Source: a virus
Taxonomy: Duplodnaviria; Caudoviricetes
Length of the DNA: 34,613 nucleotides
IMG/VR virus record: IMGVR_UViG_3300027193_000023
Span: 1-34,613 of that record
Strand: one strand, 5' to 3'
Shown here one piece after another: positions 1-34,613 of the stretch (positions are counted from its first letter, which is position 1; each line of letters starts with the position of its first letter). The notes under the pieces were generated by a model. The model worked only from the letters and a program-made list of their open reading frames with translations. It was not told where the DNA came from and did not search any database. The translations under genes were made by a program, and so were the position numbers.

Positions 1-1
1 C

Positions 2-106
2 GGCGAACGTCAAGCTGTTAACCAAGACGCTATCGTCAAGCTCATCGGTTTTGCCGGCAACCTCACATCTTCAGGCCCGCAATTCTGCGGCGTTCTGATC
101 GCTTAA
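2..106 (+). CDS. Major capsid protein, C-terminal fragment (redundant copy)
   Basis: Reads GERQAVNQDAIVKLIGFAGNLTSSGPQFCGVLIA*, identical to the end of ORF 32298..32996. Confidence 0.93.
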   Translation, partial: GERQAVNQDAIVKLIGFAGNLTSSGPQFCGVLIA

Positions 107-118
107 AAGGAAACCATC

Positions 119-652
119 ATGGCATATACATTTGACGAACCCCGTTTGGGACTTCAGCAAATTGCTGAAATTAACGACACAGTAGTTACCGCAGGTGGAA
201 CAACTATTGTTGCCCCGCCAGCAGTATTGGGTAGCATTGTTCGTGCGTTTGACCCAATTTTTGGTGAAGGCGAGTTTATCTTGTTGCTAGGTGTTGCAAG
301 CACTGTTGTTGGTTCTGTTGTGCGCTACAACGCTACAACTTACCAAACAACTTTGGTTGTTAACACCGCCGTTCAAGACGTACCTGTTGCAGTCGCTATG
401 TCGGCTTGCACAGCGGGTCTTTATGGTTGGTATCAAATCGCTGGTAATGCAGTCATCAAGAAAACTGCTGTGACCGTTGCACCTAACGTCACTCTGTTCT
501 TGTCGGCTACAGCTGGTCGTGTGAAAGTCTTGGCGTCTGCCGGTCTGCAAGTTGTTGCTGCTCGTTCAGCCAACTTGACTACCGTTACCTCTACGACTTC
601 AACTATTACCGTTACCATCAACCGTCCACATCTCCAGTCACAGATTACCTAA
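119..652 (+). CDS. Putative capsid decoration/cement protein (allele 1)
   Basis: 177 aa, Thr/Val/Ala-rich and beta-like, immediately after the major capsid gene, preceded by AAGGA. Function inferred from position. Confidence 0.6.
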   Translation: MAYTFDEPRLGLQQIAEINDTVVTAGGTTIVAPPAVLGSIVRAFDPIFGEGEFILLLGVASTVVGSVVRYNATTYQTTLVVNTAVQDVPVAVAMSACTAGLYGWYQIAGNAVIKKTAVTVAPNVTLFLSATAGRVKVLASAGLQVVAARSANLTTVTSTTSTITVTINRPHLQSQIT

Positions 653-1420
653 ATGATTGAAGCTGTACTTGATGTTGTAGGGAACACAAAGCCTGACGTT
701 TTGTTGGGCAATGTGCAGCGATCCGTAAAAAGGTCGCTGCCTTGGTTTGATTTTGACGAGTCACCCCAAGGCAGCGTCTGTCTTGTTGGTGGTGGGCCAA
801 GTCTGGTTGACACGATTGACCAGTTAAAAGTCCGTCATCAAAACGGCGCAAAAGTATGGGCAATGAACGGCTCTTACGATCATTTGCAAAGCCAAGGCAT
901 TATCCCTGATGTAATGGTGATGCTTGACGCTCGACCAGAGAACGTGAGATTTGTTCAGAATCCACAGCAATCGACTACGTTTTACATTACTAGCCAATGC
1001 GACGATGCAGTATTTGATGCGTTGGAAGGGTACAAAGTGGTGCTAGTTCACGCCAATACGCCTGGCGTTTATGAATTGCTTGAGCATGAAAAGGCTCGAC
1101 CAGTTCATCTGATGGGCGGGTTTACAACTGTTGGCATCTTGTCGTTGATATTGGCTAAGTTGCAGGGGTTTCAGCGCATCTTTATGTTTGGCATGGATTC
1201 AAGTTACCGAAACGGCGAACACCATGCTTACAAGCAAGAAAGTAATGACGCAGAACGTGTAATTGACGCTATGATTAACGATGTGACGTATAAGTGTGCG
1301 CCGTGGATGGCACAACAGGTAACAGATTTTCAGAATGTCGTAGCAGGCTTTGGTGATGTTACGATTGAAGTATGTGGCGATGGACTTTTGCACGAAATGG
1401 CAAAAGCGATGAGTAACTAA
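653..1420 (+). CDS. Maf/MptE-like (DUF115, CstII-sialyltransferase-like fold) putative glycosyltransferase
   Basis: Family-typical motifs VCLVGGGPSL, VWAMN, PDVMVMLD, TTVG and GFQRIFMFGMDSSY. Confidence 0.75.
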   Translation: MIEAVLDVVGNTKPDVLLGNVQRSVKRSLPWFDFDESPQGSVCLVGGGPSLVDTIDQLKVRHQNGAKVWAMNGSYDHLQSQGIIPDVMVMLDARPENVRFVQNPQQSTTFYITSQCDDAVFDALEGYKVVLVHANTPGVYELLEHEKARPVHLMGGFTTVGILSLILAKLQGFQRIFMFGMDSSYRNGEHHAYKQESNDAERVIDAMINDVTYKCAPWMAQQVTDFQNVVAGFGDVTIEVCGDGLLHEMAKAMSN

Positions 1421-1435
1421 ACTTTAAGGATTATC

Positions 1436-1798
1436 ATGGCATTTCCATCTAGAATTATGGGCGCTGGCAATTCGTCGTTAACTGCACAAGTAATCTGTGG
1501 CGAAGGCGCTGTCGGCCTAGTCGCTACTGGCACAACCGCAGCAGATGCTTTGCAGCTAAACGTATCAAACAACACGATTACGACTTCAGCAGCATCAACT
1601 GGCGTTAAGTTGCCACCTTGCGAAACTGGCGCTGAAATGATTATTCGTAATGATTCGGGTCAGACAATTACCGTCTATCCTTACAATACAAGCACTACAA
1701 TGAACGCAGCTGCCGCAAGTGTTACGCTTGCAAACGCTAAAACAATGTTGGTAAAAGCAACTTCCGCAACTACATGGGTAACATTAACAGGGGCTTAA
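1436..1798 (+). CDS. Small Thr/Ala-rich putative virion protein
   Basis: 120 aa, SD AAGGA, in the structural operon; GVKLP...IRNDSGQTITVYP...TW pattern of small beta-rich virion domains. Confidence 0.55.
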   Translation: MAFPSRIMGAGNSSLTAQVICGEGAVGLVATGTTAADALQLNVSNNTITTSAASTGVKLPPCETGAEMIIRNDSGQTITVYPYNTSTTMNAAAASVTLANAKTMLVKATSATTWVTLTGA

Positions 1799-16254: not shown

Positions 16255-16283
16255 ACATTAAGTTATCTAAACAGATCAATCAA
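16255..16283 (-). promoter_or_regulatory. Sigma70-like promoter with operator in the spacer
   Basis: Minus strand TTGATT-17-TAATGT; contains TTTAGATAACTTAAT. Confidence 0.6.
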
Positions 16284-16333
16284 GAAGTATTAACTAGGTG
16301 ATAACCCTTACTCTGTTTATTTTAAATATAGTT

Positions 16334-16354
16334 CCCCTACCCTTATACCCACCC
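16334..16354 (-). other. G-quadruplex-forming motif
   Basis: Minus strand GGGTGGGTATAAGGGTAGGGG: four runs of at least three G with loops of 1, 5 and 2 nt. Confidence 0.6.
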
Positions 16355-16645
16355 ACCGTAGTAGTTGAGGATAAATCCTTTACGACAGACCTGTACCTTG
16401 TTAGGTTTATGGCAGGCATCTCACCCCACCCCTAGATTCCCTAGATTGCTAGCAGTCCTTGCAAGCAATAAAGATCAATACCTAGAGTAAATGGTTTTAG
16501 TAGATTTCTCTACTCTGTCTATATCCTGTTCGATTTCTCTACTGGGGCGTGCGGGTCACACGGGATAAAGCTATATAACAAATGTATAACTGACCTGTAT
16601 GGGTACGAGTGGTCACTCTATTAGCTAATGCGCCCTGACAGCTGT
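16355..16645 (-). ncRNA. Candidate structured non-coding RNA / origin region
   Basis: No credible ORF; several hairpins on the minus strand (GUAGA-GAAA-UCUAC, AGGA-UUUA-UCCU) and a 12-bp direct repeat at 16503/16532. Confidence 0.4.
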
Positions 16646-16647
16646 TT

Positions 16648-16763
16648 AAAAAAACAAAAAAGCCGTTTTAATCTGTATCCTGGTGAGAGAATCCACTATC
16701 GTTTTCAAGGCGCAAGTGGATCAGGCTACAGACTAAAACGGCTTCGTTATCTCTCACGACAAC
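16648..16763 (-). ncRNA. Candidate ~115-nt small RNA / attenuator: long hairpin, poly-U and leader-bulge pseudoknot
   Basis: Arms 16660..16697 and 16715..16744 pair; the bulged UCUCUCAC (16683..16690) is complementary to leader GUGAGAGA (16750..16757); a U-tract follows. Confidence 0.7.
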
Positions 16764-16769
16764 AATTTA

Positions 16770-16799
16770 ATTATGCCATCGTCTGTTCCGATGTGTCAA
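16770..16799 (-). promoter_or_regulatory. Strong sigma70-like promoter driving the structured RNA
   Basis: Minus strand TTGACA-18-CATAAT with an extended -10 TG. Confidence 0.7.
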
Positions 16800-16871
16800 G
16801 GTCTGAAGCTAACCTAGTGAAACACGACCCTTATCATTGTTTGTTTCATGCTTGCTAAAGGATTAATCAGT

Positions 16872-17087
16872 CTAATGCAACTCAGGCCAGATTTGTTGCC
16901 AGTTAGGGATTTCTTTTCTTGACCATTTACCGTTTGATTTCTTTTCAAGCTCGGCAGCTAGCAACACTAACTTATCACCAGGCAAACCATTGTTGCGCCA
17001 TTGCGATACAGCTGGTGGACTGACACGGCAGAGCTTGGCTACAGCAAACGTGCCACCTAATGTTTGGATGATTTCTGTTGTATTCAT
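16872..17087 (-). CDS. Cro-like HTH repressor
   Basis: IIQTLGGTFAVAKLCRVSPPAVSQWRNNGLP...IWPEL, a Cro/YdaS-like pattern. Confidence 0.85.
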   Translation of the reverse strand: MNTTEIIQTLGGTFAVAKLCRVSPPAVSQWRNNGLPGDKLVLLAAELEKKSNGKWSRKEIPNWQQIWPELH

Positions 17088-17150
17088 GTAGCAATCTTAA
17101 CATTGGTTGTCAAAGAAACTCAAATAAATATTTAACCTTGAGTTTTCCGC

Positions 17151-17179
17151 TTGCGTTCTGTGTTTAGTTGGCTTAATAT
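17151..17179 (+). promoter_or_regulatory. Sigma70-like promoter for the recombination operon, with operator
   Basis: TTGCGT-17-TAATAT; contains TTTAGTTGGCTTAAT. Confidence 0.7.
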
Positions 17180-19240: not shown

Positions 19241-19305
19241 TTTAGATAGCTTAATATCTGTACATGGCAACACGCCATCAACCACGATAAAAGGTACATA
19301 AATGA
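19241..19305 (+). repeat. Duplicated promoter/leader unit, copy 2
   Basis: See copy 1 at 17163..17227. Confidence 0.9.
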
Positions 19306-31734: not shown

Positions 31735-31982
31735 ATGGCATTTGCCAATAGCTCGATCAGCGACATCATTGCGACTAACATTCAAAGCCGCACGGGTGAA
31801 CTTGCTGACAACGTAACAAACAACAACGCTTTACTGCGCCGTTTGAAAGAACGTGGCAACGTAAAGACGTTTTCTGGCGGTAACGTGATTTTGCAAGAGA
31901 TCATGTACAACGACGCTGCAACTGACAACACTAATAGCTATTCAGGCTATGAAGTTTTAAATGTTTCGCAAAACAGTCCCAT
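31735..31982 (+). CDS. Major capsid protein, exon 1
   Basis: GGAG SD; MAFANSSISDIIAT...LADNVTNNNALL...YSGYEVLNVSQNSP(I); the unspliced frame stops at 32019 inside the intron. Confidence 0.9.
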
Positions 31983-32242
31983 TGACGAATTAGTGGCCTT
32001 GCAGAGTAATCTGCATTGAATAACTTTGTGAATTCGGTGAAACTCTGACCATTAAGTTGAAGACAATACCGAGCCAAGCCCAGAGATGGGAAGGTGTAAC
32101 GACTAGGGTGTGACTACCCGTAGAGCCAAGTGGCTCGAAGTGCAAAGAACCCTACGGGGTTGTGAGATAGTCTGCTCTGCATAGAAATATGCAGCAGTCC
32201 GAAAGGGCGGCAAGAAATTAACGACTTCTTGTGAACATTTGG
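31983..32242 (+). ncRNA. Group I self-splicing intron, 260 nt, ORF-less, IA-like (P7.1/P7.2 present)
   Basis: P1 with U31982.G31993; P3 CUUUGU/GCAAAG; P4 UUCGGU/ACCGAG; P7 GACUA(32101)/UAGUC(32168); P8 with UACG loop; P9 with GAAA loop; terminal G32242; excision restores the frame. Confidence 0.93.
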
Positions 32243-32996
32243 TAGTGGGGCACAGTTTTCGATCACCCAGTACGCTGCTGCGATTTCAATCAGCGGTTTG
32301 GAAATGATCCAAAACAGCGGTAAAGAAGCAATCATCGACTTGCTAGATGGTCGTATGAGCGTGGCTGAAGCACAATTGGCGAACCGTATTTCGGGTGACA
32401 TTTACCTAGACGGTACTGGTAACTCAGGCAAGAACATCACAGGCCTCGGCGCTGCTGTTCCTGACGCACCAAGCACCGGCACATACGGCGGCATCAATCG
32501 TGTATCGTTCTCGTTCTGGCGTTCGGCTAAGTTCTCAGGCGTGACAGATGGCGGCTCGGCTACATCAGCATCAAACATCCAGTCGTACATGGATGCTCTT
32601 GCTGTTCAGCTGATTCGTGGAACTGACAAACCTGATCTGATCGTTTGCGACAACAACTATTACAAGCTGTATTTGCAATCGTTGCAGTCAATCCAACGTA
32701 TTTCAGACGGTGGCAATTCGGCAGTTGGCGCAGGCTTTGCATCGTTGAAATACTACGGCGCTGGTATGGCATCAGATGTGATCTTAGACGGTGGTATCGG
32801 TAACGATGCAACTGCCAATCATATGTGGTTTTTGAACACCAAATACATGATGTTCCGTCCACACGCTGATCGTAATTTCGTGCCAATCGGCGGCGAACGT
32901 CAAGCTGTTAACCAAGACGCTATCGTCAAGCTCATCGGTTTTGCCGGCAACCTCACATCTTCAGGCCCGCAATTCTGCGGCGTTCTGATCGCTTAA
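32243..32996 (+). CDS. Major capsid protein, exon 2
   Basis: The frame is open upstream of the tracked TTG: (I)SGAQFSITQYAAAISISGLEMIQNSG...; 248+754 nt = 1002 nt = 333 aa plus stop. Confidence 0.9.
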
Positions 32997-33007
32997 AGGA
33001 AACCATC

Positions 33008-33541
33008 ATGGCATATACATTTGACGAACCTCGGATCGGGGTTTTAAATATCGATCAAACGGACTCTGGTGTTACAACCGCAGGCGGCACGACTATTCCT
33101 ACGCCCCCAGCTGTTCTCGGCACTATTGTTCGTGCATTTGATCCAACCTACGGCGAGGGTGAGTTCATCCTGTTGTTAGGCGTGGCATCAACTGTTGTTG
33201 GTTCTGTTGTGCGCTACAACGCTACAACTTACCAAACAACTTTGGTTGTCAACACCGCCGTTCAAGACGTACCTGTCGCAGTCGCTATGTCGGCTTGCAC
33301 AGCGGGTCTTTATGGTTGGTATCAAATTGCTGGTAATGCAGTCATCAAGAAAACAGCCGTTACCGTTGCACCTAACGTTACTCTGTTCTTGTCGGCTACT
33401 GCTGGTCGTGTGAAAGTCTTGGCATCTGCCGGTTTGCAAGTTGTTGCTGCTCGTTCAGCAAACTTGACCACCGTCACTTCTACGACTTCAACCATTACCG
33501 TGACAATTAACCGTCCACATCTCCAGTCACAGATCACCTAA
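33008..33541 (+). CDS. Putative capsid decoration protein (allele 2)
   Basis: Identical to 119..652 except for 16 substitutions in residues 10-48. Confidence 0.6.
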   Translation: MAYTFDEPRIGVLNIDQTDSGVTTAGGTTIPTPPAVLGTIVRAFDPTYGEGEFILLLGVASTVVGSVVRYNATTYQTTLVVNTAVQDVPVAVAMSACTAGLYGWYQIAGNAVIKKTAVTVAPNVTLFLSATAGRVKVLASAGLQVVAARSANLTTVTSTTSTITVTINRPHLQSQIT

Positions 33542-34309
33542 ATGATTGAAGCTGTACTTGATGTTGTAGGGAACACAGAGCCTGACGTTTTGTTGGGCAA
33601 TGTGCAGCGATCCGTAAAAAGATCGCTGCCTTGGTTTGATTTTGACGAGTCACCCCAAGGCAGCGTCTGTCTTGTTGGTGGTGGGCCAAGTCTGGTTGAC
33701 ACGATTGACCAGTTAAAAGCCCGTCATCAAAACGGCGCAAAAGTATGGGCAATGAACGGTTCTTACGATCATTTGCAAAGCCAAGGCATTATCCCTGACG
33801 TAATGGTGATGCTTGACGCTCGACCAGAGAACGTGAGATTTGTTCAGAATCCACAACAATCGACTACGTTTTACATCACTAGCCAATGCAACGATGCAGT
33901 ATTTGATGCGTTGGAAGGTTTCAAAGTGGTGCTAGTTCACGCCAATACGCCTGGCGTTTATGAGTTGCTCGAGCATGAAAAGGCTCGACCAGTTCATCTG
34001 ATGGGCGGGTTTACAACTGTTGGCATTTTGTCGTTGATATTGGCTAAGTTGCAAGGGTTTCAGCGCATCTTTATGTTTGGCATGGATTCAAGTTATCGCA
34101 ATGGCGAACACCATGCTTACAAACAAGAAAGTAATGACGCAGAACGTGTAATTGACGCTATGATTAACGATGTGACGTACAAATGTGCGCCGTGGATGGC
34201 ACAACAGGTAACGGATTTTCAGAATGTCGTAGCAGGCTTTGGTGATGTTACGATTGAAGTATGTGGCGATGGACTTTTGCACGAAATGGCAAAAGCGATG
34301 AGTAACTAA
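33542..34309 (+). CDS. Maf/MptE-like putative glycosyltransferase (allele 2)
   Basis: Four amino-acid differences from 653..1420. Confidence 0.75.
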   Translation: MIEAVLDVVGNTEPDVLLGNVQRSVKRSLPWFDFDESPQGSVCLVGGGPSLVDTIDQLKARHQNGAKVWAMNGSYDHLQSQGIIPDVMVMLDARPENVRFVQNPQQSTTFYITSQCNDAVFDALEGFKVVLVHANTPGVYELLEHEKARPVHLMGGFTTVGILSLILAKLQGFQRIFMFGMDSSYRNGEHHAYKQESNDAERVIDAMINDVTYKCAPWMAQQVTDFQNVVAGFGDVTIEVCGDGLLHEMAKAMSN

Positions 34310-34324
34310 ACTTTAAGGACTATC

Positions 34325-34613
34325 ATGGCATTTCCATCAAGAATTATGGGCGCAGGCAATTCATCGTTAACGGCTCAAGTAATCTGTGGCGAAGGCGCTG
34401 TCGGCCTAGTCGCTACTGGCACAACCGCAGCAGATGCTTTGCAGTTGAACGTGTCAAACAACACGATTACAACTTCAGCAGCATCGACTGGCGTTAAGTT
34501 GCCACCTTGCGAAACTGGCGCTGAAATGATTATTCGTAATGATTCGGGTCAGACAATTACCGTCTATCCTTACAATACAAGCACTACAATGAACGCAGCT
34601 GCCGCAAGTGTTA
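34325..34613 (+). CDS. Small Thr/Ala-rich virion protein, truncated by the window end
   Basis: Copy of the 5' part of 1436..1798. Confidence 0.7.
   Translation, partial: MAFPSRIMGAGNSSLTAQVICGEGAVGLVATGTTAADALQLNVSNNTITTSAASTGVKLPPCETGAEMIIRNDSGQTITVYPYNTSTTMNAAAASV

What the first reader, a model, noticed from the sequence alone, without database searches (positions are those of the whole stretch)
16648..16763. Small RNA / attenuator whose 8-nt bulge is complementary to its own leader
Seen (minus strand): GUGAGAGA-uaacg-AAGCCGUUUUAGUCUGUA-G-CCUG-AUCCACU-(loop)-AGUGGAU-[UCUCUCAC]-CAGG-A-UACAGAUUAAAACGGCUU-UUUU. The roughly 29-bp rod has one precise 8-nt bulge that is the exact complement of the 5' leader. 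One stem position is G.U on the minus strand but A/C on the plus strand, which points to the minus-strand RNA. Established: P4 CI and P1 C4 RNAs use bulge or loop sequences to pair with their own nascent leader and control termination. Inference: either a cis pseudoknot switch or a trans-acting immunity or copy-number RNA, notable because no CI repressor is present.
Basis: partly seen in the sequence, partly recalled or inferred. Interest (0 to 1): 0.75.

Follow-up and report, generated by a model that had tools for sequence, protein, structure and literature searches.

The report
Barcoded RNA gate on phage replication
This uncultured phage carries a predicted ~110-base RNA whose front loop and terminator bulge are exact complements that change in step through at least 17 versions in related phages; it likely acts as a strain-specific, RNA-only switch gating a neighbouring folded RNA that sits where relatives keep their DNA-replication genes and may start replication without an initiator protein.

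Summary
On the minus strand a sigma-70-type promoter (16799-16770) precedes a small leader hairpin, a 29-bp rod with an 8-nt bulge, and a U tract. In 57 aligned homologues the first six leader:bulge pairs hold in 342 of 342 cells, with compensatory changes and one G.U; there are at least 17 alleles. Folding of nascent lengths makes the leader:bulge helix dominant until about 8 bases past the bulge, and geometry argues that it cannot coexist with the finished terminator. Likely mechanism: cis pairing antiterminates, and the terminated RNA blocks it in trans, giving allele-specific feedback or exclusion. Downstream lies a ~310-nt covarying RNA that ends in the genome's only G4 motif. Of 49 distinct slots, 45 hold such an RNA (2 are Rfam Betaproteobacteria-1) and 4 hold lambda O/P-like genes; none holds both. 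No initiator, helicase, polymerase or integrase was recognised in the window. It works like P4 CI/seqA but fails C4 and CI membership. The host, expression, trans action and origin function are untested. Earlier notes of this scan describe the same class in other genomes.

The parts
16872..17087 (-). Cro/YdaS-like HTH gene (71 aa); marks the upstream edge of the module
   Evidence: Pfam P22_Cro E 2.6e-7; phrog_35; used as anchor
16770..16799 (-). Predicted sigma-70 promoter TTGACA-18-CATAAT; start site predicted near 16763
   Evidence: 11 of 12 consensus matches; -35 and -10 like boxes recur in homologues; not mapped experimentally
16746..16763 (-). Leader hairpin (6 bp) presenting the address hexamer in its loop
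   Evidence: MFE; 90% of cells paired in 57 sequences, 0 of 500 shuffles as high
16750..16757 (-). Leader octamer GUGAGAGA (address)
16660..16744 (-). Long rod / predicted intrinsic terminator hairpin with variable upper stem-loop
   Evidence: 96% of cells paired, 17 of 23 pairs with compensatory change
16683..16690 (-). 8-nt bulge UCUCUCAC, complement of the leader
   Evidence: first six pairs hold in 342 of 342 cells; 7 of 8 pairs with two-sided change
16648..16661 (-). U tract (U6 G U7); predicted 3' end of the short RNA
   Evidence: a U tract follows the rod in the homologues, which were selected for one
16330..16640 (-). Structured non-coding 'slot' RNA (type A, ~310 nt) in the position of O/P-like replication genes; candidate primer/origin RNA
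   Evidence: 20 of 36 named pairs with compensatory change in 45 sequences; mutually exclusive with O+P in 49 slots
16334..16354 (-). G3-N1-G3-N5-G3-N2-G4 tract at the 3' end of the slot RNA; the only such G4 motif in the genome
   Evidence: conserved, but part of it was the search pattern

Best explanation
The leader loop and the bulge are complementary and co-vary across relatives; the element is likely a self-addressed transcription attenuator in which cis pairing would let transcription run into the replication slot and the terminated short RNA would shut it off in trans. Step 1 (predicted): transcription starts near 16763 and the leader hairpin forms first, showing a 6-nt loop. Step 2 (computed): when the bulge strand emerges, it pairs with the leader in cis. 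This 8-bp helix is the dominant fold until about 8 more bases are free. With ~14 nt hidden in RNA polymerase (recalled figure), that is when the polymerase enters the U tract. Step 3 (inferred): the cis helix and the full two-turn terminator rod exclude each other, so the cis helix delays terminator formation and allows read-through. Step 4 (inferred): terminated ~110-nt RNAs have a free bulge. They would bind the leader loop of new transcripts of the same allele, block the cis helix and enforce termination. This gives negative feedback on replication and exclusion of genomes with the same address. Step 5 (shown by comparison): the read-through region is the replication slot, which holds O/P-like genes in some relatives and a structured RNA here. 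Step 6 (inferred): that RNA likely primes or opens the origin through a G-rich RNA:DNA hybrid, ColE1 RNA II-style, using host enzymes.
For: Covariation: 342 of 342 cells paired at the first six positions; 107 cells with two-sided change against 29 +/- 4 in shuffles; slid registers pair 34-53%. 17 seven-base alleles among 69 sequences, and six identical 3' rod arms carry 2-3 different alleles, as expected for a specificity code. One G.U in 433 paired leader:bulge cells against 122 in about 1259 paired rod cells. Leader:bulge probability >0.5 in 50 of 57 sequences at the bulge end, 36 at +8, 10 at +10, 1 at +14, 0 at +21; window 0.94-0.99 up to +8. The bulge-to-rod-base distance is fixed at 22-24 nt in 57 of 57. 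Slot survey: 34 type A, 9 type B, 2 type C, 4 O+P, none both or neither. O-like protein in 3 of 26 records, exactly those with it in the slot; DUF1376 / phrog_678 'replication initiation O-like'. No helicase, primase, polymerase or integrase family among 150 proteins of nine related records or the window ORFs. Precedents: P4 CI pairing with upstream seqA (PMC4825925, section read); RNA-based origins replacing repA in mycobacterial prophages (PMC7157519, passages).
Against: No transcript, start site, termination or trans effect was observed; the available runs are contigs only. The sign of the trans effect is not shown: IsrK is a terminated RNA that activates its own read-through message. ViennaRNA models neither kissing complexes, pseudoknots nor kinetics, and at equilibrium the terminator wins from +10 on. 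In 7 of 57 sequences the cis helix is not dominant even at the bulge end. The 57 rows were chosen for having the match 18-22 nt from the U tract, and related sequences can beat shuffles without structure. 107 of the 150 proteins had no Pfam family and 50 shorter ones were not scanned, so an unrecognised initiator is possible. A stand-alone initiator C-terminal domain occurs in 3 of 22 records and in MW202674, all with slot RNAs, though not in the window. The slot RNA alone folds no better than shuffles (z -0.83) and has no plasmid match. The one chromosomal Betaproteobacteria-1 copy found has no leader/rod element nearby. No host or prophage copy was found.
Confidence: 0.55

Rival explanations
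1. Cis-only kinetic attenuator: the leader:bulge helix sets a fixed or condition-dependent read-through fraction (polymerase speed, temperature, upstream antitermination) and the short RNA is a by-product.
For: The cis helix is strongly predicted in nascent RNA and its timing matches the U tract. Two co-varying hairpins upstream could be a separate antitermination input.
Against: It does not explain why the address is shown in a conserved hairpin loop, why alleles diversify on identical scaffolds, or why G.U is nearly absent here but common in the rod.
Confidence: 0.17
2. Trans action with the opposite sign or another target: the short RNA activates read-through or refolds the slot RNA (IsrK-like positive feedback), acting as a density or multiplicity switch.
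For: IsrK precedent (PMC4825925). In the window the apical loop is complementary over 10 nt (one G.U) to the start of the slot RNA at 16638-16629 (read).
Against: That loop motif occurs in only 15 of 37 type A elements and also before other slot types (2 of 10 B, 1 of 4 E, 3 of 25 other), so it does not co-vary. No second address copy lies downstream: 7 of 58 cognate against 287 of 3512 non-cognate. No alternative antiterminator that trans binding would favour appeared in the folds.
Confidence: 0.1
3. The switch works as proposed, but the slot RNA is not a primer. It is a single-stranded-DNA origin or priming signal, or an RNA of another function, and replication starts by recombination (ERF, SSB, exonuclease, resolvase) or an unrecognised protein.
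For: ERF, SSB, PD-(D/E)XK nuclease and Hjc-like genes are present. Many ORFs have no family. Some slot-RNA phages keep an initiator C-terminal domain. GAAA loops also stabilise DNA hairpins (recalled).
Against: Exact one-for-one exchange with O+P. The slot lies behind a regulated terminator. G.U pairs and GAAA/GUAA loop exchange fit RNA on the transcribed strand. The recombination genes are also present in O/P-bearing relatives.
Confidence: 0.15
4. Ordinary long terminator; the complementarity is neutral or maintained by template switching between inverted repeats.
For: Inverted-repeat correction can perfect palindromes (recalled).
Against: Conserved register and compensatory change across 17 alleles and unrelated virion types. 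Mismatches and G.U persist in the rod, where such correction would be easiest.
Confidence: 0.03

Closest known systems
Satellite phage P4 immunity: CI RNA with seqA and seqC (PMC4825925, one Discussion section read; primary paper PMC176756 not held)
   Same: A small RNA from the same transcript pairs with an upstream site in its own leader and limits transcription of replication functions by premature termination.
   Different: One address only and no downstream seqC-like site. The terminator is intrinsic and part of the RNA itself, whereas CI is processed from a longer transcript (Rho dependence recalled). The gated product here is a non-coding RNA.
C4 antisense RNA of phages P1/P7 (Rfam RF01695; PMC5320573 passages, PMC2864571 passages and supplement hits)
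   Same: Short variable recognition sequences in single-stranded parts of a long stem give phage-specific recognition; upstream target site. Related classes here have a three-way junction and two sites.
   Different: No model match. No second recognition region or downstream target in the window class, and no ant gene recognised. Control appears transcriptional.
ColE1 RNA II/RNA I and MRB plasmids such as pB1067 (PMC3035462, parts 2-3 of 6 read)
   Same: ORF-free replication region of a few hundred bases; a small terminator-bearing RNA as specific negative regulator; small loop differences give compatibility groups.
   Different: Those regulators are counter-transcripts from the opposite strand. 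Here both partners lie on one strand in one transcript, and no opposite-strand promoter was predicted. No sequence similarity to plasmids. Primer function untested.
RNA-based prophage origins of cluster A mycobacteriophages (PMC7157519, passages read)
   Same: Within one phage group, a repA gene and a non-coding RNA region are alternatives for replication.
   Different: Those serve parABS plasmid prophages of Actinobacteria. No ParA was recognised here, no lysogeny is shown, and the passages read describe no such self-addressed attenuator.
Rfam Betaproteobacteria-1 (RF02932)
   Same: Occupies the same slot behind the same attenuator in L059, L063 and L098.
   Different: The window's type A RNA does not match it.
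IsrK of Gifsy-1 prophage (PMC4825925)
   Same: A terminated short RNA acts in trans on its own read-through transcript.
   Different: IsrK activates translation; no Rfam match here.

Membership tests
C4 antisense RNA (RF01695) / c4-2 | Match to the Rfam covariance model | tested here: not met
   No hit in the window at gathering score or at E<=10; no C4 hit in 18 and 20 homologous loci
C4 antisense RNA (RF01695) / c4-2 | Three-stem RNA with two recognition regions a' and b' | tested here: not met
   The window class has one bulge address; a second site is seen only in related classes
C4 antisense RNA (RF01695) / c4-2 | Downstream target in front of a translated antirepressor operon | tested here: not met
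   No downstream address enrichment; the downstream ~400 nt are non-coding
C4 antisense RNA (RF01695) / c4-2 | RNase P processing at the stem 5' end | not testable with these tools
   Only assembled contigs were available
P4 CI RNA system | Upstream complementary site in the same transcript (seqA-like) | tested here: met
P4 CI RNA system | Downstream complementary site (seqC-like) | tested here: not met
   7 of 58 cognate against 287 of 3512 non-cognate; the octamer is unique in the genome
P4 CI RNA system | Lies ahead of replication functions | tested here: inconclusive
   Met for O/P-bearing relatives; inferred for the window's slot RNA
P4 CI RNA system | RNA acts in trans to cause termination and immunity | not testable with these tools
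   Needs experiment
ColE1/MRB-type RNA-primed replicon | No initiator protein; structured ORF-free region | tested here: inconclusive
   None recognised in the window and structure is supported, but many ORFs have no family
ColE1/MRB-type RNA-primed replicon | Counter-transcribed RNA I overlapping the primer | tested here: not met
   No plus-strand promoter-like site between 15000 and 17936 (consensus scan only)
ColE1/MRB-type RNA-primed replicon | Persistent RNA:DNA hybrid processed by RNase H and extended by Pol I | not testable with these tools
   Only a G-rich 3' tract is seen
Betaproteobacteria-1 (RF02932) | Match to the model | tested here: not met
   Window: no hit; three relatives hit at 80-83 bits

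The most novel reading that the evidence does not exclude
A group of tailed phages of several virion types replicates from an all-RNA, protein-free replicon on a single transcript. A self-addressed attenuator, whose terminated product is its own allele-specific inhibitor, meters synthesis of a modular structured primer RNA that is interchangeable with lambda-like O/P genes. Rfam's orphan Betaproteobacteria-1 motif would be one such primer domain, and the address alleles would be orthogonal incompatibility groups.
Probability: 0.4. Interest if true: 0.87.

Novelty: new variant of a known kind. Interest (0 to 1): 0.7.

Why it matters
If true, it explains how many small uncultured phages with no recognisable replication gene start replication and compete with each other. 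It gives an orphan Rfam motif a testable job. It adds a one-promoter, one-strand design for antisense-type copy control, with no counter-transcript and no repressor protein. The natural set of at least 17 strictly paired alleles on one scaffold is a ready panel of possibly orthogonal RNA transcription switches. Tempering this: the logic is close to P4 CI, RNA-based phage origins have a precedent, and earlier notes of this scan already flag the same class in other genomes.

Tried and rejected
Rfam: only a group I intron in the window; four chance-level hits at E 2-7 around the locus. Plasmid BLAST with the window region and a type C slot: nothing meaningful. Host search: a pattern scan of GTDB genomes gave 59 loci; my script printed those with a 6-nt match or a strong fold, and none showed the leader/bulge arrangement in a phage-like context. 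The covariance model R1 found 0 of 151 genomes of the order holding a Methylotenera genome and two marginal 30-bit, 45-50 nt hits in 151 genomes of its family, which I did not examine further and treat as chance. Sequencing runs: 11 listed, none holding half of the words; four were laid, all contigs of relatives, so nothing on ends, strand or level. Two-strand cofolding of leader with rod was uninformative because the program cannot model loop-bulge kissing. Apical loop pairing with the slot RNA start was rejected as non-conserved, and a downstream second target was rejected. Alignment A1 had wrong coordinates for two rows and was not used. A guessed homology of the window's 21285 ORF with the 'putative replication protein' of MW202674 was not supported. 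A supposed replication-relaxation gene beside the chromosomal Betaproteobacteria-1 copy had no family match. Literature searches showed no description of this element. The library lacks most subscription papers, and the supplement of PMC5737381, which describes Betaproteobacteria-1 and c4-2, could not be read and may bear on novelty.

Full report
Setting. The window is a complete ~32.9 kb phage genome with overlapping ends. It has terminase, portal, capsid, endolysin, ERF, SSB, exonuclease and resolvase-like genes. No integrase, CI-type repressor, initiator, helicase, primase or polymerase family was recognised among the ORFs scanned; many ORFs have no family. The host is unknown. The two GenBank relatives come from a freshwater spring.

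Observation. The quoted sequence is present. The rod folds at z = -9.4. A sigma-70-type promoter with 11 of 12 matches ends 7 bases before the leader. The leader octamer is presented by a 6-bp hairpin. Rfam has no match.

Homologues. A Cro-anchored scan kept the best 80 of 102 loci and a pattern scan gave 75 loci; many are the same contigs. I examined 156 sequences (79 of the 80 Cro loci, the 75 pattern loci, MW202520 and the window). 148 gave a rod ending at a U tract, and 79 were distinct. In all 79 the leader had a perfect 6-9 nt complement inside the rod. It was 7 nt or more in 71 of 79, against 589 of 6162 non-cognate pairs (which include same-allele pairs) and 187 of 3950 shuffles. In 69 of the 79 the match ended 18-22 nt before the U tract. 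The other ten were set aside: six of a three-way-junction class, three of an apical-loop class, and L113.

Covariation. The 69 carry 17 seven-base alleles, and six identical 3' arms carry two or three alleles each. On a sequence-only MAFFT alignment of 57 distinct rows, the first six leader:bulge pairs hold in 342 of 342 cells and all eight in 95%. 107 cells show two-sided change against 29 in shuffles, and slid registers pair 34-53%. There is one G.U among 433 paired cells, against 122 among about 1259 in the rod. The leader hairpin is 90% paired. The rows were selected for the position of the match and cells are not independent events, but the number of distinct alleles leaves little doubt that the pairing is selected.

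Cis or trans. In the finished rod the bulge lies 22-24 nt from the base and the leader is 5-13 nt from it. In nascent RNA, however, the leader:bulge helix is the dominant nested fold: probability above 0.5 in 50 of 57 at the bulge end, 36 at +8, 10 at +10, 1 at +14 and 0 at +21; 0.94-0.99 in the window up to +8. With about 14 nt inside polymerase (recalled), the switch point coincides with entry into the U tract. I infer a kinetic antiterminator. The looped display of the address, its diversification on fixed scaffolds and its strict Watson-Crick pairing point to trans recognition as well: the terminated RNA would occupy the leader loop and restore termination. No second target exists downstream (7 of 58 against 287 of 3512) or elsewhere in the genome. 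These steps are untested, the folding is equilibrium-only, and the sign could be opposite, as in IsrK.

What is gated. In L064, L068, L076, L357 and MW202520 the terminator is followed by a DUF1376/O-like gene and a second gene annotated as replication protein P in MW202520. In the window it is followed by ~400 non-coding bases. Their core shows non-triplet indels and GNRA loops, and 20 of 36 named pairs have compensatory changes in 45 sequences (97.8% paired, 0 of 500 shuffles). The single sequence folds no better than shuffles. It ends in the genome's only G4 motif. Of 160 Cro- or ERF-anchored loci, 158 had Cro and 49 distinct slots had 900 bases or more: 34 type A RNA, 9 type B, 2 type C and 4 O+P, none both or neither. 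Type C contains Rfam Betaproteobacteria-1.

Absence of replication proteins. The O-like protein occurs in 3 of 26 records, those with it in the slot, and in 1 of 12 near-complete ones. From nine records I scanned 150 of 200 cluster representatives of 90 aa or more that lack a window homologue. No helicase, primase, polymerase or integrase family appeared, DUF1376 appeared only in the O/P control, and 107 had no family. These records include SU10-type and HK97-type virion modules, so the module moves between phage types. Against a wholly protein-free reading, a lone initiator C-terminal domain is present in 3 of 22 records and in MW202674, though not in the window. Several ORFs upstream of which I noted their own operator-like motif suggest that the downstream genes need not depend on read-through (inference). 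I therefore infer that the slot RNA replaces O/P, most likely as an R-loop-forming primer.

Comparison. It works like P4 CI/seqA (PMC4825925: passages and one Discussion section read) and shares the specificity logic of C4 (PMC5320573: passages; PMC2864571: passages and supplement hits) and of MRB plasmids (PMC3035462: parts 2-3 of 6). It fails the membership tests: no model match, no downstream target, no counter-transcript. RNA-based origins alternating with repA are known in mycobacterial prophages (PMC7157519: passages). PMC5737381 (passages), PMC8129170 (passages) and PMC12360218 (passages) added background only. Nine literature searches (listings only for papers not named above) found no description of this element. 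The PMC5737381 supplement was unreadable.

Earlier notes of this scan. Look-ups by sequence and by place found nothing. A word search showed unreviewed notes with the same reading in other genomes. They came after my reading was formed and are not independent evidence, but they show the class recurs.

Verdict. Real and selected pairing, about 0.97. It controls read-through at this terminator, about 0.8. Trans negative feedback, about 0.6. Slot RNA as primer or origin, about 0.5. New variant of a known kind; interest 0.70; most novel reading probability 0.4, interest 0.87.

Noticed in passing
window 16777-16815 (-): Two small hairpins between the cro stop and the leader, the second inside the promoter spacer, co-vary in their stems around conserved loops (AGCUUYAG and GAAAGA-like), behind a conserved box. 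Possibly a nut/put-like antitermination signal (label recalled) for the transcript coming from cro.
   Followed up: partly
window 16258-16271, 17087-17100, 17163-17176, 19241-19254: An imperfect palindrome lies upstream of the 16235 gene, cro, erf and the 19302 gene; candidate operators of the Cro-like protein (19 matches against 6.7 expected, pattern derived from these sites). A -10-like box just ahead of the cro start suggests a leaderless message.
   Followed up: partly
window 31971-32194 (+): Group I intron (RF00028, 62.8 bits) interrupting the major capsid gene.
   Followed up: no
L046, L064, L067, L068, L075, L081, L357; L035, L070, L072, L228, L231: Two other attenuator architectures fill the same position: a three-way junction with two address boxes, and a class whose apical loop matches a leader box. 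All four O/P-bearing slots use the two-box class.
   Followed up: partly
L089, L092, L093, L097, L108, L109, L119, L126, L139, L143, L155, L224, L228: Several further unclassified 250-330 nt non-coding sequences follow the attenuator. 5' and 3' domains are swapped between types (L224, L228), and many end in a G-rich or CCACCCUUGG element.
   Followed up: partly
L033, L062, L075, L076, L077 between cro and the promoter: An extra ~190-nt non-coding insert with apparent hairpins, not in Rfam.
   Followed up: no
L008, L046, L067, L075: A 74-aa ORF of no known family is inserted between the terminator and a type A slot RNA.
   Followed up: no
L287:7241-7615; L290-L292: Stand-alone C-terminal domain of a phage replication initiator (phrog_270, E 1e-17), without the DNA-binding part, in four slot-RNA phages; possibly a helicase-loading adaptor for an RNA-opened origin.
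   Followed up: partly
L286 (G148:C1:2769809-2769931): A chromosomal Betaproteobacteria-1 copy among AAA, CHAT and HAD genes, followed by another structured-looking non-coding stretch and with no R1 match nearby.
   Followed up: partly
window 1-1720 and 32891-34613: The window start recurs at 32891, so it is a ~32.9 kb circularly permuted genome with overlapping ends.
   Followed up: yes
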